Shown here: positions 6,001-9,000 of the stretch, piece by piece
Layout of the letters: each line of letters opens with the position of its first letter
How positions within the stretch are numbered: the first letter of the stretch is position 1
Assembly (NCBI RefSeq): GCF_013167455.1
Contig: NZ_CP038328.1
DNA length: 64,000 bases
Strand: one strand, 5' to 3'
From: Escherichia coli O157:H7
GTDB lineage: Bacteria > Pseudomonadota > Gammaproteobacteria > Enterobacterales > Enterobacteriaceae
Program-made: the position numbers

Positions 6001-9000
6001 AGAGCTGGTGAAGTCCTTAAGCCCCTCTAACAGCATTGTTGCCAGCTGGTCATGGTACTCCCATCAGCGACTGGCAAATCTGCCGCTGGTGCGAATTGGT
6101 GAAGACGCGCACCGCAACCCATTAATGCAGAACGAAAAACGTAAAAATTTGACCATCCTGATTGTCGGCGAAACCTCGCGGGCGGAGAACTTCTCCCTCA
6201 ACGGCTACCCGCGTGAAACTAACCCGCGGTTGGCGAAAGATAACGTGGTCTATTTCCCTAATACCGCATCTTGCGGCACGGCAACGGCAGTTTCAGTACC
6301 GTGCATGTTCTCGGATATGCCGCGAGAGCACTACAAAGAAGAGCTGGCACAGCACCAGGAAGGCGTGCTGGATATCATTCAGCGAGCGGGCATCAACGTG
6401 CTGTGGAATGACAACGATGGCGGCTGTAAAGGTGCCTGCGACCGCGTGCCTCACCAGAACGTCACCGCGCTGAATCTGCCTGATCAGTGCATCAACGGCG
6501 AATGCTATGACGAAGTGCTGTTCCACGGGCTGGAAGAGTACATCAATAACCTGCAGGGTGATGGCGTGATTGTCTTACACACCATCGGCAGCCACGGTCC
6601 GACCTATTACAACCGCTATCCGCCGCAGTTCAGGAAATTTACCCCAACCTGCGACACCAATGAGATCCAGACCTGTACCAAAGAGCAACTGGTGAACACT
6701 TACGACAACACGCTGGTTTACGTCGACTATATTGTTGATAAAGCGATTAATCTGCTGAAAGAACATCAGGATAAATTTACCACCAGCCTGGTTTATCTTT
6801 CTGACCACGGTGAATCGTTAGGTGAAAATGGCATCTATCTGCACGGTCTGCCTTATGCCATCGCCCCGGATAGCCAAAAACAGGTGCCGATGCTGCTGTG
6901 GCTGTCGGAGGATTATCAAAAACGGTATCAGGTTGACCAGAACTGCCTGCAAAAACAGGCGCAAACGCAACACTATTCACAAGACAATTTATTCTCCACG
7001 CTATTGGGATTAACTGGCGTTGAGACGAAGTATTACCAGGCTGCGGATGATATTCTGCAAACTTGCAGGAGAGTGAGTGAATGAAAATTCTGATTGTTGA
7101 AGACGATACGCTGTTATTGCAGGGACTGATTCTGGCGGCGCAAACCGAAGGCTACGCGTGCGATGGCGTGACAACCGCGCGGATGGCGGAACAAAGCCTT
7201 GAGGCAGGTCATTACAGCCTGGTGGTACTGGATTTAGGGTTACCCGACGAAGATGGACTGCATTTTCTCGCCCGTATCCGGCAGAAAAAATATACCCTGC
7301 CGGTACTGATCCTCACCGCTCGCGATACGCTGACCGACAAAATCGCCGGGCTGGATGTCGGTGCCGACGACTATCTGGTGAAGCCTTTTGCGCTGGAAGA
7401 GTTACATGCCCGTATCCGCGCCCTGCTACGACGCCATAATAATCAGGGCGAAAGTGAGCTGATTGTTGGCAATCTGACGCTGAACATGGGTCGCCGTCAG
7501 GTATGGATGGGCGGTGAAGAGTTGATTCTGACGCCCAAAGAATATGCTCTGCTGTCACGGTTAATGCTCAAAGCAGGCAGTCCGGTGCATCGGGAAATTC
7601 TCTACAACGACATCTATAACTGGGACAATGAACCCTCGACCAACACCCTGGAAGTGCATATCCACAATCTGCGCGACAAAGTGGGCAAAGCCCGTATCCG
7701 CACCGTGCGCGGCTTTGGCTATATGCTTGTCGCGAATGAGGAAAACTAATTGAATCTGATGCGTTTTCTGCGCCGACCAATATCGCTGCGCCAACGGCTG
7801 ATATTGACCATCGGGGCCATTTTGTTGGTGTTTGAGCTGATCAGCGTCTTCTGGCTATGGCATGAAAGTACCGAGCAGATTCAGCTGTTTGAGCAGGCGC
7901 TACGCGACAATCGCAACAACGATCGCCACATCATGCGTGAGATCCGCGAGGCGGTCGCCAGCCTGATTGTCCCCGGCGTCTTTATGGTCAGCCTGACGCT
8001 ATTTATCTGCTATCAGGCGGTACGCCGCATCACCCGCCCGCTGGCGGAGCTGCAAAAAGAGCTGGAAGCGCGCACCGCCGACAACTTAACGCCCATTGCC
8101 ATTCACAGCGCCACCCTCGAAATCGAAGCGGTGGTTTCGGCGTTGAACGATCTGGTCAGTCGCCTGACCAGCACGCTGGATAACGAAAGGTTATTTACCG
8201 CTGACGTCGCGCACGAACTGCGAACGCCACTGGCGGGGGTGCGTTTGCATCTGGAACTGCTGGCGAAAACGCATCACATTGATGTAGCACCGTTAGTGGC
8301 ACGGCTTGATCAGATGATGGAGAGCGTCTCCCAGCTGCTGCAACTGGCGCGTGCCGGACAGTCATTTTCTTCCGGTAATTATCAACATGTAAAACTGCTG
8401 GAAGATGTCATTCTCCCCTCGTATGACGAACTCAGTACCATGCTCGACCAGCGACAGCAAACCCTGCTATTGCCAGAGAGCGCCGCCGACATCACCGTTC
8501 AGGGTGATGCAACCCTGCTGCGGATGTTATTGCGAAACCTGGTAGAAAACGCCCATCGTTACAGCCCGCAAGGCAGCAACATTATGATTAAGCTGCAAGA
8601 AGATGGCGGAGCGGTCATGGCCGTTGAAGATGAAGGACCGGGTATTGATGAGAGTAAATGCGGGGAGTTGAGTAAAGCGTTTGTACGTATGGACAGCCGT
8701 TATGGCGGGATTGGTCTGGGGTTAAGTATTGTCAGCCGCATTACACAGTTGCATCACGGGCAGTTTTTCCTGCAAAACCGGCAAGAGACTTCCGGCACGC
8801 GGGCCTGGGTACGGCTGAAGAAAGATCAGAACGTGGCAAACCAGATATAAAGAAAGCTGCTGACCACCAGCACGCTGAACACGGTAGTTAAACTTTCATA
8901 AACACGGTTTTTCATTGCACTCTCCTCCGTTAACCTGGAGGAGAGTATGCGCGTCAGAGATTAAGTGAACCTTAAGAGTTCAATTGGCCTGATAAGACAG

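What the first reader, a model, noticed from the sequence alone, without database searches (positions are those of the whole stretch)
8826..8976. Antisense small-protein gene pmrR with a PmrA box and a hairpin that could sequester its Shine-Dalgarno
A 29-codon minus-strand ORF overlaps the last 25 nt of basS. It is preceded by a PmrA box (8960-8976) and a perfect 9-bp inverted repeat, ctctcctcc-N8-ggaggagag (8920-8945). In the mRNA, that repeat would pair the GGAGG Shine-Dalgarno with an upstream complement only 4 nt before the ATG. This suggests structure-controlled translation of a PmrA-activated small membrane protein, while its transcription runs antisense into basS.
Basis: partly seen in the sequence, partly recalled or inferred. 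Interest (0 to 1): 0.4.

Follow-up and report, generated by a model that had tools for sequence, protein, structure and literature searches.

The report
pmrR promoter sits inside leader hairpin
The known small gene pmrR is preceded by a strongly conserved hairpin that hides its ribosome-binding site, but the gene's own PmrA-dependent promoter probably starts inside that hairpin, so the hairpin most likely silences only transcripts running in from the neighbouring gene.

Summary

pmrR and its PmrA box are already published and annotated. The region also matches Rfam RF02052 (STnc630), whose consensus structure already contains this hairpin.

New here:
- **The hairpin is under selection.** It is conserved with compensatory changes in 51 distinct leaders from about 20 enterobacterial genera.
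- **Its 5' arm contains the probable -10 element.** The hexamer (CATACT, 8949..8944) lies 10 nt after the box in 50 of 51 leaders.
- **The predicted start falls in the loop.** Published PmrA promoter geometry puts +1 at about 8939–8935, so the PmrA-dependent mRNA should lack the 5' arm and have a free SD.
- **RNAs carrying the full hairpin exist.** They must come from upstream (proP here, uvrB in other genera, often with no room for a terminator). K-12 Term-seq shows a 3' end 4 nt past the stem.

Best reading: insulation against read-through, plus a 3' end for the upstream mRNA, as in IS10 or phage T4 gene e. No direct TSS map for pmrR was available. Confidence 0.6, moderate interest.

The parts
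8826..8915 (-). pmrR ORF, 29 aa (LpxT activity modulator PmrR). Its last 25 nt (8826-8850) overlap the 3' end of basS/pmrB on the other strand.
   Evidence: ORF; NF033224, 72.7 bits, cut-off 30; RefSeq annotation.
7750..8850 (+). basS/pmrB ORF (sensor kinase), convergent with pmrR.
   Evidence: pmrR-basS is listed as a convergent transcript overlap in E. coli RNA-seq (PMC12288877).
8960..8976 (-). PmrA box CTTAAGGTTCACTTAAT, an exact consensus match that takes the place of a -35 element.
   Evidence: one of only two exact matches in the window. Deleting the box abolishes PmrR function in E. coli (PMC8129183). Conserved in about 56 of 80 loci.
8944..8949 (-). Probable -10 hexamer CATACT, 10 nt after the box. 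Positions 4-6 (ACT) are the first bases of the 5' arm of the hairpin.
   Evidence: Alignment A1 columns 29-34: A 48/51, A 50/51, C 47/51, T 51/51. Same spacing in 50 of 51 leaders. The eptA promoter has GAGCAT at the same spacing.
8935..8939 (-). Predicted PmrA-dependent transcription start. Best guess is A8936 (K-12 4332095), preceded by C8937. Not mapped.
   Evidence: Box end at -21 gives 8939 (PMC10570014). Hexamer plus 7-8 nt gives 8937/8936. A pyrimidine-purine step occurs at this place in 45 of 51 leaders.
8937..8946 (-). 5' arm of the hairpin, ACUCUCCUCC (anti-SD). It overlaps the -10 hexamer and the discriminator.
8929..8936 (-). Loop AGGUUAAC. The predicted mRNA 5' end falls here.
8919..8928 (-). 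3' arm GGAGGAGAGU, the Shine-Dalgarno region. It ends 3 nt before the AUG.
   Evidence: SD-window unpaired probability is 0.07 in read-through RNA and 0.74 in the predicted native RNA.
8915..8915 (-). RNA 3' end mapped by Term-seq in E. coli K-12 (4332116, pmrR-sense strand), 4 nt past the 10-bp stem.
   Evidence: Adams et al. 2021, PMC7815308, supplementary files 1 and 3. The leader sequence printed there is identical to the window.
8986..9014 (-). REP-like hairpin between the proP stop and the PmrA box. It has no U-tract and is not a canonical terminator. It is absent where proP stops 2 nt (Citrobacter amalonaticus) or about 8 nt (Salmonella) from the box.
9027..10529 (-). proP, the upstream co-directional gene whose transcripts can run into the pmrR leader. 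The upstream end is taken from the K-12 annotation.
8819..8984 (-). Match to Rfam RF02052 'STnc630'. The family is the whole Salmonella proP/basS intergenic region, so it holds the box, the hairpin and the pmrR ORF.
   Evidence: 178.5 bits, gathering score 55; Sittka 2008: coordinates are intergenic-region bounds.
8858..8872 (-). Terminator-like hairpin inside the pmrR ORF, followed by GCUUUCUUUA. A possible stop for untranslated read-through RNA. Function unknown.
   Evidence: It is also paired in the Rfam consensus.

Best explanation
pmrR is the known PmrA-activated small membrane protein gene. The inverted repeat in front of it is a real, selected RNA hairpin in the pmrR-sense strand, and its two arms belong to different functional units. 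The 5' arm is the end of the -10 element plus the discriminator of the PmrA-dependent promoter. The 3' arm is the Shine-Dalgarno.

RNA polymerase recruited by PmrA therefore starts at about 8936, in the loop. It makes an mRNA with a 5' UTR of about 21 nt that lacks the 5' arm and has an open ribosome-binding site (inferred).

Transcripts that enter from the upstream co-directional gene carry both arms. That gene is proP in Escherichia, Citrobacter amalonaticus and Salmonella, and uvrB in the other genera checked. In these transcripts the hairpin of about -20 kcal/mol forms, buries the SD 3 nt from the AUG, and so keeps PmrR from being made when PmrA is inactive (inferred).

The same hairpin also marks the stable 3' end of those upstream transcripts. 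A 3' end 4 nt past the stem is observed in K-12. It probably arises by exonuclease trimming after termination further downstream, which would be favoured because the untranslated pmrR stretch is open to Rho (inferred).

The net effect is that PmrR synthesis stays strictly dependent on PmrA, although the gene sits directly behind another expressed gene.
For: 1. The hairpin is selected. The helix is 83% paired against 50% or less in slid controls. There are 40 double-change cells against 13.7 +/- 2.8 (0 of 500 shuffles). Pair 35-56 is A-U 17, C-G 15, G-C 6, G-U 6.

2. In the SD core, wobble pairs favour the pmrR-sense strand: 34 G.U against 8 A.C.

3. The 5' arm holds a -10-like hexamer. NAnnnT lies 10 nt after the box in 50 of 51 leaders. 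Its A2 and T6 are kept even where the 3' partner has drifted to C. The eptA promoter in the same window has the same spacing.

4. Published geometry fits. The pmra-box replaces the -35 element and spans about -37 to -21 in pbgP (PMC10570014). That gives +1 at 8939-8935.

5. A purine lies 6-8 nt after the hexamer, with a pyrimidine-purine step in 45 of 51 leaders. Predicted UTRs are 18-22 nt.

6. Folding depends on the 5' end. RNA from 8950 or 8959 folds at -20 to -23 kcal/mol (z about -4). RNA from 8940 or 8937 shows no significant structure. Across the 51 leaders the SD window has a median unpaired probability of 0.12 in read-through RNA and 0.53 in the predicted native RNA. It is higher in the native form in 50 of 51.

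7. Upstream transcripts must reach the leader. A long co-directional ORF ends just upstream in every genus examined. Its stop is 2 nt from the box or overlaps it by 5 nt in six loci. Only 7 of 49 loci have a canonical terminator in between.

8. Term-seq in K-12 shows a pmrR-sense 3' end at 4332116 (window 8915), which requires an RNA containing the whole hairpin. No curated 3' end follows the REP hairpin.

9. Hairpins are stronger where the upstream stop is 30 nt or less from the box: median -18.0 against -14.8 kcal/mol, Spearman 0.38, p 0.008, not corrected for phylogeny.

10. Mis-timed PmrR is harmful. Plasmid-borne PmrR causes a growth defect without stress (PMC11429745).
Against: - No 5' end of the pmrR mRNA was available. 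The start site is inferred from promoter geometry only.
- The Adams et al. filter implies that a TSS lies 21-200 nt upstream of the 3' end in the Thomason data. That TSS could be my predicted one (21-24 nt upstream), or one upstream of the hairpin.
- Over all 11 pairs the strand test is neutral: 83.0% paired on the pmrR-sense strand and 83.6% on the other. The outer pairs show many A.C, which would be G.U on the pmrB-sense strand.
- Species with a good terminator upstream of the box still keep the hairpin.
- Translation of read-through RNA has not been measured.
- A plasmid study assigns this region a role in pmrB expression (PMC8004244).
Confidence: 0.6

Rival explanations
1. The PmrA-dependent pmrR mRNA contains both arms, and the hairpin throttles or conditionally gates translation of PmrR. 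This would resemble the SD-sequestering stem in the IS200 tnpA 5' UTR or an RNA thermometer.
For: The hairpin is stable and conserved, and it buries the SD. PmrR dosage matters, since both deletion and overexpression cause defects. Adams et al. retained the 3' end at 4332116 as a possible 5' UTR or internal regulatory event, which needs a TSS more than 20 nt upstream. IS200 shows that such native-leader SD stems exist (PMC4513863).
Against: A start upstream of 8946 would need a -10 element over the PmrA box itself, which is a repressing geometry and not an activating one. Yet the box is required for PmrR function. The conserved NAnnnT hexamer 10 nt after the box lies inside the arm. The PmrA activation complex places the box end at about -21. 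No sigma-70-like promoter is found upstream.
Confidence: 0.1
2. The hairpin is only a 3'-end structure (a terminator or exonuclease block) for the upstream gene's mRNA (proP or uvrB). Its overlap with the pmrR SD is incidental and has no effect on PmrR synthesis.
For: A Term-seq 3' end lies 4 nt past the stem, and no other curated proP 3' end exists. Upstream genes often lack any other terminator.
Against: There is no U-tract, so it is not a canonical intrinsic terminator. The stem is always built from the SD and the -10/discriminator region, although a 3' hairpin could sit anywhere. It is kept in species that also have a canonical terminator upstream. Any RNA that carries it and extends into pmrR necessarily has the SD occluded, so a translational effect is hard to avoid.
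Confidence: 0.15
3. The hairpin acts on the opposite strand, as the 3' structure of the eptA-basRS (pmrCAB) mRNA, stabilising or ending that transcript.
For: The + strand folds equally well. The outer stem pairs show A.C on the pmrR strand, which would be G.U on the pmrB strand. Most pmrR-containing species have no canonical terminator after pmrB: 8 of 55 have one, and all of those lie beyond the box. By contrast 9 of 25 pmrR-less species have one 10-50 nt after the stop. Constructs cut at +86, which removes one arm, lose colistin resistance, and +103 restores part of it (PMC8004244).
Against: In the SD core, wobbles favour the pmrR-sense strand, 34 to 8. No U-tract follows on the + strand. 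The truncation series equally tracks the pmrR promoter: +86 is the predicted +1, +103 adds the -10, and +126 adds the box. Those authors saw no effect on mRNA stability. The A.C pairs involve the A residues that the -10 element fixes.
Confidence: 0.08
4. There is no function. The complementarity is a by-product of a purine-rich SD and a pyrimidine-rich promoter spacer.
For: Short inverted repeats of this size are common in the window. Both arms carry other constraints.
Against: There are compensatory changes at positions with no other known role, namely pairs 35-56 and 36-55. The AGU after the SD is conserved opposite the ACU of the hexamer. The slid controls collapse to 50% or less.
Confidence: 0.03

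Closest known systems
PmrR, the PmrA-activated 29-aa membrane peptide that inhibits LpxT (Kato et al. 2012 Mol Cell, cited in PMC8129183 and PMC11429745; NCBIfam NF033224)
   Same: The same gene: sequence, length, position antisense to the pmrB 3' end, and the PmrA box upstream. The function has been shown in Salmonella and E. coli.
   Different: Nothing differs in the gene itself. No paper I could read discusses the leader hairpin or its relation to the promoter. The original paper was not held.
Rfam RF02052, STnc630 (Salmonella Hfq co-IP candidate, Sittka et al. 2008)
   Same: Full-length match at 178.5 bits. The family's consensus structure already draws this hairpin.
   Different: The family is typed as an sRNA, but its boundaries are those of the whole proP/basS intergenic region. 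It therefore includes promoter DNA (the PmrA box) and the pmrR ORF. No Northern signal was obtained.
Protection from outside transcription in IS10 and IS50 (fold-back inhibition: Davis, Simons and Kleckner 1985; Krebs and Reznikoff 1986), from my own knowledge
   Same: A stem pairs the ribosome-binding site with an upstream complement. The element's own promoter starts inside the stem, so only transcripts from outside are silenced.
   Different: Here the logic is applied to a chromosomal regulon member behind a housekeeping gene, not to a transposase. The 5' arm is the -10/discriminator of an activator-dependent promoter. The start site is inferred, not mapped.
Phage T4 genes e (lysozyme) and soc: early read-through transcripts are untranslatable, and late promoters start inside the hairpin (McPheeters et al. 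1986), from my own knowledge
   Same: There are two classes of transcript for one ORF. The longer one hides the SD in a hairpin. The shorter one, from a regulated promoter inside the hairpin, is translated.
   Different: In T4 this is a temporal switch between promoter classes. Here it would be a switch between a neighbour's transcription and a two-component-system-dependent promoter.
SD-sequestering stem in a gene's own 5' UTR (IS200 tnpA, PMC4513863)
   Same: A stable stem occludes the SD and blocks 30S binding.
   Different: In IS200 both arms are in the native mRNA. Here the native mRNA probably lacks the 5' arm.

Membership tests
PmrR (NCBIfam NF033224, LpxT activity modulator) | Protein matches the curated model above its cut-off. 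| tested here: met
   72.7 bits against a cut-off of 30, over residues 1-29 of 29.
PmrR (NCBIfam NF033224, LpxT activity modulator) | Encoded convergent with and next to the 3' end of pmrB, and preceded by a PmrA box. | tested here: met
   The same layout occurs in about 56 of 80 enterobacterial loci.
PmrR (NCBIfam NF033224, LpxT activity modulator) | Membrane peptide that binds and inhibits LpxT. | not testable with these tools
   Reported for Salmonella and E. coli in PMC8129183 and PMC11429745.
Rfam RF02052 STnc630 | Covariance-model score above the gathering threshold. | tested here: met
   178.5 bits against 55, model positions 1-166 of 166.
Rfam RF02052 STnc630 | A discrete small RNA with defined ends. 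| tested here: not met
   The coordinates are those of the entire intergenic region, and the Northern result was 'nd'.
PmrA-activated promoter in which the box replaces the -35 element (pbgP, ugd, pmrCAB type) | YTTAAK-N5-YTTAAK box in direct orientation upstream of a -10 element. | tested here: met
   Exact box. Conserved NAnnnT hexamer 10 nt downstream in 50 of 51 leaders.
PmrA-activated promoter in which the box replaces the -35 element (pbgP, ugd, pmrCAB type) | Transcription start about 21-24 nt after the box, dependent on PmrA. | not testable with these tools
   No TSS table covering this site was held. The geometry is taken from PMC10570014.
   Promoter geometry and hexamer conservation place +1 inside or after the 5' arm. 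This argues against the model, but no 5' end is mapped.
Read-through insulation by a fold-back hairpin (IS10, IS50, T4 gene e type) | The stem pairs the SD or start region with an upstream complement. | tested here: met
Read-through insulation by a fold-back hairpin (IS10, IS50, T4 gene e type) | The gene's own promoter initiates within the stem-loop. | tested here: inconclusive
   Predicted from the -10 element in the 5' arm and the published box position. Not mapped.
Read-through insulation by a fold-back hairpin (IS10, IS50, T4 gene e type) | Transcripts from an upstream gene traverse the stem-loop. | tested here: met
   A Term-seq 3' end lies 4 nt past the stem. The upstream stop codon is 5 nt inside to 2 nt before the box in six loci. 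Only 7 of 49 loci have a terminator in between.
Read-through insulation by a fold-back hairpin (IS10, IS50, T4 gene e type) | Long transcripts are not translated and short ones are. | not testable with these tools
   This needs translational fusions or toeprinting.
Intrinsic (Rho-independent) terminator | GC-rich stem followed by a U-tract. | tested here: not met
   Not reported by the terminator scan on either strand. The tails are GUGCAAUGAA on the minus strand and UAUGCGCGUC on the plus strand.

The most novel reading that the evidence does not exclude
The hairpin-capped RNA that ends at the pmrR AUG may be a functional product in its own right. It would be a proP- or uvrB-3'UTR-derived, Hfq-associated RNA (the 'STnc630' reads). 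Alternatively, read-through RNA may be a regulated reservoir in which a trans-acting sRNA or protein opens the stem, so that osmotic stress (proP) or SOS (uvrB) transcription can be converted into PmrR synthesis independently of PmrA. This would couple osmotic or DNA-damage stress to lipid A modification.
Probability: 0.07. Interest if true: 0.6.

Novelty: new member of a known kind. Interest (0 to 1): 0.4.

Why it matters
PmrR sets the charge at position 1 of lipid A by blocking LpxT. It therefore affects the trade-off between polymyxin and bile resistance, and feedback on PmrB. Both too little and too much PmrR are harmful. If the promoter-inside-hairpin layout works as proposed, it explains three things:

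- how a 29-codon gene wedged directly behind proP or uvrB stays strictly PmrA-dependent;
- why an "sRNA" family (STnc630) was called at this locus;
- why plasmid constructs carrying different lengths of "pmrB 3' UTR" behave differently.

It would also be a clear chromosomal example of a trick otherwise known from transposons and phage T4. It is conserved across about 20 genera and can be tested with a few fusions.

Tried and rejected
**Direct TSS evidence.** I searched the supplementary tables of Cappable-seq, SMRT-Cappable-seq, Salmonella Cappable-seq and Hammarlöf 2018. None held text covering this site. Thomason 2015, Kröger 2012 and Kato 2012 are not held. The supplements of PMC11429745 are not held.

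**Intrinsic terminator.** Rejected on both strands, because no U-tract follows the stem.

**Sigma-70 promoter upstream of the hairpin.** None was found.

**Strand test by wobble pairs.** It is clear in the SD core but neutral over the whole stem, so I did not use it as decisive.

**Significance of the inverted repeat alone.** Rejected, because such repeats are common in this window.

**Protein-binding palindrome.** Considered and set aside. The arm sequences change between genera while complementarity is kept, and G.U pairs occur.

**STnc630 as a defined sRNA.** Rejected, because the family boundaries are intergenic-region bounds.
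Full report
**What is there**

The window around 8600-9300 is the E. coli basS(pmrB)–pmrR–proP junction. It is 100% identical to O157:H7 genomes and is present in 5408 of 5426 complete E. coli genomes. RefSeq annotates "pmrR: LpxT activity modulator PmrR" at this place.

The 29-codon ORF runs 8915..8826 on the minus strand. basS ends at 8850, so the overlap is 25 nt. The peptide scores 72.7 bits against NCBIfam NF033224, whose cut-off is 30.

The minus strand reads CTTAAG-GTTCA-CTTAAT at 8976..8960. This is an exact PmrA box. The only other exact match in the 64 kb window is the eptA promoter.

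The inverted repeat ctctcctcc-N8-ggaggagag (8920-8945) is perfect and extends to 10 bp (8919/8946). In pmrR-sense RNA it pairs ACUCUCCUCC with GGAGGAGAGU, and the stem ends 3 nt before the AUG.

**What was already known**

PmrR and its PmrA box are published. Deleting only the box abolishes PmrR function in E. coli (PMC8129183). PmrR translation is induced in low Mg2+, and both loss and excess of PmrR impair growth (PMC11429745).

The region 8984..8819 also matches Rfam RF02052 "STnc630" at 178.5 bits, and the family's consensus structure already contains this hairpin. STnc630 comes from Sittka et al. 2008. It had 27 Hfq co-IP reads against 1 control read in the proP/basS intergenic region, in the proP orientation, and no Northern signal. 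Its coordinates are explicitly those of the whole intergenic region. The "sRNA" family is therefore the pmrR locus including its promoter.

**Is the hairpin more than chance?**

On its own it is not. Perfect inverted repeats of at least 9 bp with 3-12 nt loops give 23 overlapping hits (about 12 places) in this window, against about 3.4 in random sequence.

Comparison settles the question. A scan of one genome per species with BasS returned 80 loci. About 56 of them carry a PmrA box antisense downstream of pmrB, followed by a small PmrR-like ORF.

In an alignment of the 51 distinct box-to-ATG leaders, the helix is 83% paired, against 35-50% when the partner columns are slid. It has 40 double-change cells against 13.7 +/- 2.8 in shuffles (0 of 500 reach it). 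Pair 35-56 alternates among A-U (17), C-G (15), G-C (6) and G-U (6). The hairpin is under selection.

**Where does the PmrA-dependent transcript start?**

- *A conserved hexamer inside the arm.* CATACT (8949..8944) lies exactly 10 nt after the box. An NAnnnT hexamer occupies that position in 50 of 51 leaders. A at position 2 is kept in 48 of 51 and T at position 6 in 51 of 51. The A residues stay fixed even in the 18-22 leaders where their would-be pairing partner has drifted to C. Their conservation is therefore not explained by the stem, and it is the signature of a -10 element. The eptA promoter in the same window has GAGCAT at the same spacing.
- *Published geometry.* The cryo-EM study of the PmrA activation complex states that the pmra-box replaces the -35 element. 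[quoted passage not shown] With the box ending at 8960, +1 falls at about 8939. With the hexamer as -12 to -7, it falls at 8937 or 8936.
- *A start-site motif.* A pyrimidine-purine step lies 6-8 nt after the hexamer in 45 of 51 leaders. The predicted 5' UTRs are 18-22 nt.

The 5' arm is 8946..8937, so the PmrA-dependent RNA should contain at most 0-3 nt of it.

Folding confirms the consequence. RNA starting at 8950 or 8959 forms the stem at -20 to -23 kcal/mol (z about -4). RNA starting at 8940 or 8937 has no significant structure, with z of +0.4 and +0.9. Across all leaders the SD window has a median unpaired probability of 0.12 with the 5' arm present and 0.53 from the predicted start. It is higher in the short form in 50 of 51.

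A start upstream of the arm would need a -10 element over the PmrA box itself, which would repress and not activate. That contradicts the box being required for PmrR function. The caveat is that no 5' end for pmrR could be retrieved.

**Which RNA carries the hairpin?**

It must be an RNA that starts upstream. In every genus examined a long ORF co-directional with pmrR ends just before the box. It is proP in Escherichia and Citrobacter amalonaticus. It is uvrB in the Raoultella, Kosakonia and Phytobacter loci I tested, and the other genera have a long non-proP ORF of similar size in the same position.

The stop codon of that gene is 2 nt from the box in C. amalonaticus. It overlaps the box by 5 nt in four loci, and lies 20-23 nt away without any hairpin in two more. 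From the Rfam seed, the Salmonella intergenic region begins only 8 nt before the box. Only 7 of 49 loci have a canonical terminator between the upstream gene and the box. In this window the intervening REP-like hairpin (8986-9014) has no U-tract.

There is also direct evidence. Term-seq in E. coli K-12 records a pmrR-sense RNA 3' end at 4332116, which is window 8915, the A of the AUG and 4 nt past the 10-bp stem. The leader sequence printed in that table is identical to the window. No curated 3' end follows the REP hairpin (PMC7815308). By its position in the table the entry belongs to the second sheet, probably LB at OD 2.0, a condition not known to induce PmrA. An RNA ending there must contain the whole hairpin.

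**Mechanism proposed**

The hairpin tells apart two classes of transcript over the same ORF. Transcripts entering from proP or uvrB fold it. Their SD is buried, so PmrR is not made. The untranslated RNA is probably terminated downstream and trimmed back to the stem, which then caps the upstream mRNA. PmrA-recruited polymerase starts in the loop and makes a short, open leader.

What is shown:
- the stem is selected;
- the -10-like hexamer is conserved inside the arm;
- upstream genes abut the box;
- a 3' end exists at the stem.

What is inferred:
- the exact +1;
- the lack of translation of the long RNA;
- trimming or Rho involvement.

Supporting trend: stems are stronger where the upstream stop is 30 nt or less from the box. 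The median is -18.0 against -14.8 kcal/mol, with Spearman 0.38 and p 0.008, not corrected for phylogeny.

**Rivals**

Confidence 0.1.
- *A pure 3'-end structure for the upstream mRNA.* This fits the Term-seq end. It does not explain why the stem is always built from the SD and the promoter, nor why it persists where a canonical terminator exists upstream. Confidence 0.15.
- *A structure in the pmrB-sense RNA.* The overall strand test is neutral, at 83.0% against 83.6% paired. The outer pairs show A.C, which would be G.U on the other strand. However, those A residues are the ones fixed by the -10 element, and in the SD core the wobbles favour the pmrR strand 34 to 8. No U-tract follows on the + strand. 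The plasmid truncation series of PMC8004244 (+86 none, +103 partial, +126 full colistin resistance) maps onto 8936, 8953 and 8976. Those are my predicted +1, the -10 plus full stem, and the complete PmrA box. The series therefore fits the pmrR promoter as well as a pmrB 3' UTR effect. Confidence 0.08.
- *Chance.* Excluded by covariation. Confidence 0.03.

**Comparison with known systems**

The gene is PmrR, with all testable membership features met. The cis-element works like the protection against outside transcription in IS10 and IS50, and like phage T4 genes e and soc. In those cases long transcripts hide the ribosome-binding site in a stem, and the regulated promoter starts inside it (my own knowledge of Davis et al. 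1985 and McPheeters et al. 1986). It differs from the IS200 tnpA leader, where both arms are in the native mRNA (PMC4513863). For the fold-back family, two defining features are met here, one (the start inside the stem) is predicted but not mapped, and one (differential translation) cannot be tested with these tools.

**Verdict**

The gene and the box are already known. The hairpin is real and conserved, and it was already drawn in Rfam without any interpretation. The better-supported reading is a promoter embedded in an anti-SD hairpin that insulates PmrR synthesis from the neighbour's transcription and caps that neighbour's mRNA. It is a new member of a known kind of mechanism. Interest is moderate at 0.4. 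Confidence is 0.6, limited by the missing 5'-end map.

Noticed in passing
window 5362-5394: Directly after adiC (stop at 5337) there is a perfect 13-14 bp hairpin (AAGCCAACCTTAAG / CTTAAGGTTGGCTT) with a U-rich tail, so it looks like a terminator. Its 3' arm is the PmrA box of the eptA promoter (5378-5394). Both PmrA-dependent promoters in this window are therefore embedded in a hairpin that faces an upstream co-directional gene. Folding gives -25.9 kcal/mol, z -5.6.
   Followed up: partly
window 8819-8984 (minus): Rfam RF02052 'STnc630 sRNA' is the entire Salmonella proP/basS intergenic region (166 nt). It contains the PmrA box, the leader hairpin and the pmrR ORF. The family looks mis-typed as an sRNA, since no discrete RNA was ever detected.
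   Followed up: yes
window 8858-8872 (minus), tail to about 8848: A terminator-like hairpin followed by GCUUUCUUUA lies inside the pmrR coding sequence, before its stop codon. It is also paired in the Rfam consensus. It could stop untranslated read-through RNA while being melted by ribosomes on translated pmrR mRNA. This was not tested.
   Followed up: no
window 8915 (K-12 4332116): The published Term-seq table lists this 3' end as 'internal' to pmrR at position 1. It is more simply read as the 3' end of proP mRNA, 112 nt after the proP stop and therefore outside the 50-nt window the authors used for 'primary' ends.
   Followed up: partly
window 8936, 8953, 8976 (= +86, +103, +126 after the pmrB stop): The cut points of the 'pmrB 3' UTR' series in PMC8004244 coincide with the predicted pmrR +1, the -10 plus complete stem, and the complete PmrA box. 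Colistin resistance goes none, partial, full in the same order. This suggests the effect may run through the pmrR promoter.
   Followed up: partly
loci L007-L071, region after pmrB: The gene upstream of pmrR differs between genera. It is proP in Escherichia, Citrobacter amalonaticus and Salmonella. It is uvrB in the Raoultella, Kosakonia and Phytobacter loci tested, and Klebsiella and others carry a similar long non-proP ORF. The box, hexamer, hairpin and ORF module is the same in both settings.
   Followed up: yes
window 8826-8828 against K-12 (L001 2201-2203): The last residue of PmrR is F in this window and Y in K-12 and most other Escherichia. From the Rfam seed bounds, pmrR in Salmonella appears to lie wholly within the intergenic region. 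The 25-nt overlap with pmrB therefore seems specific to the longer Escherichia PmrB C-terminus.
   Followed up: no
window 8986-9014: The REP-like hairpin between proP and the PmrA box is present in Escherichia. It is absent in C. amalonaticus and, judging by the Rfam seed, in Salmonella, where proP stops 2-8 nt before the box. It looks like a later insertion.
   Followed up: partly
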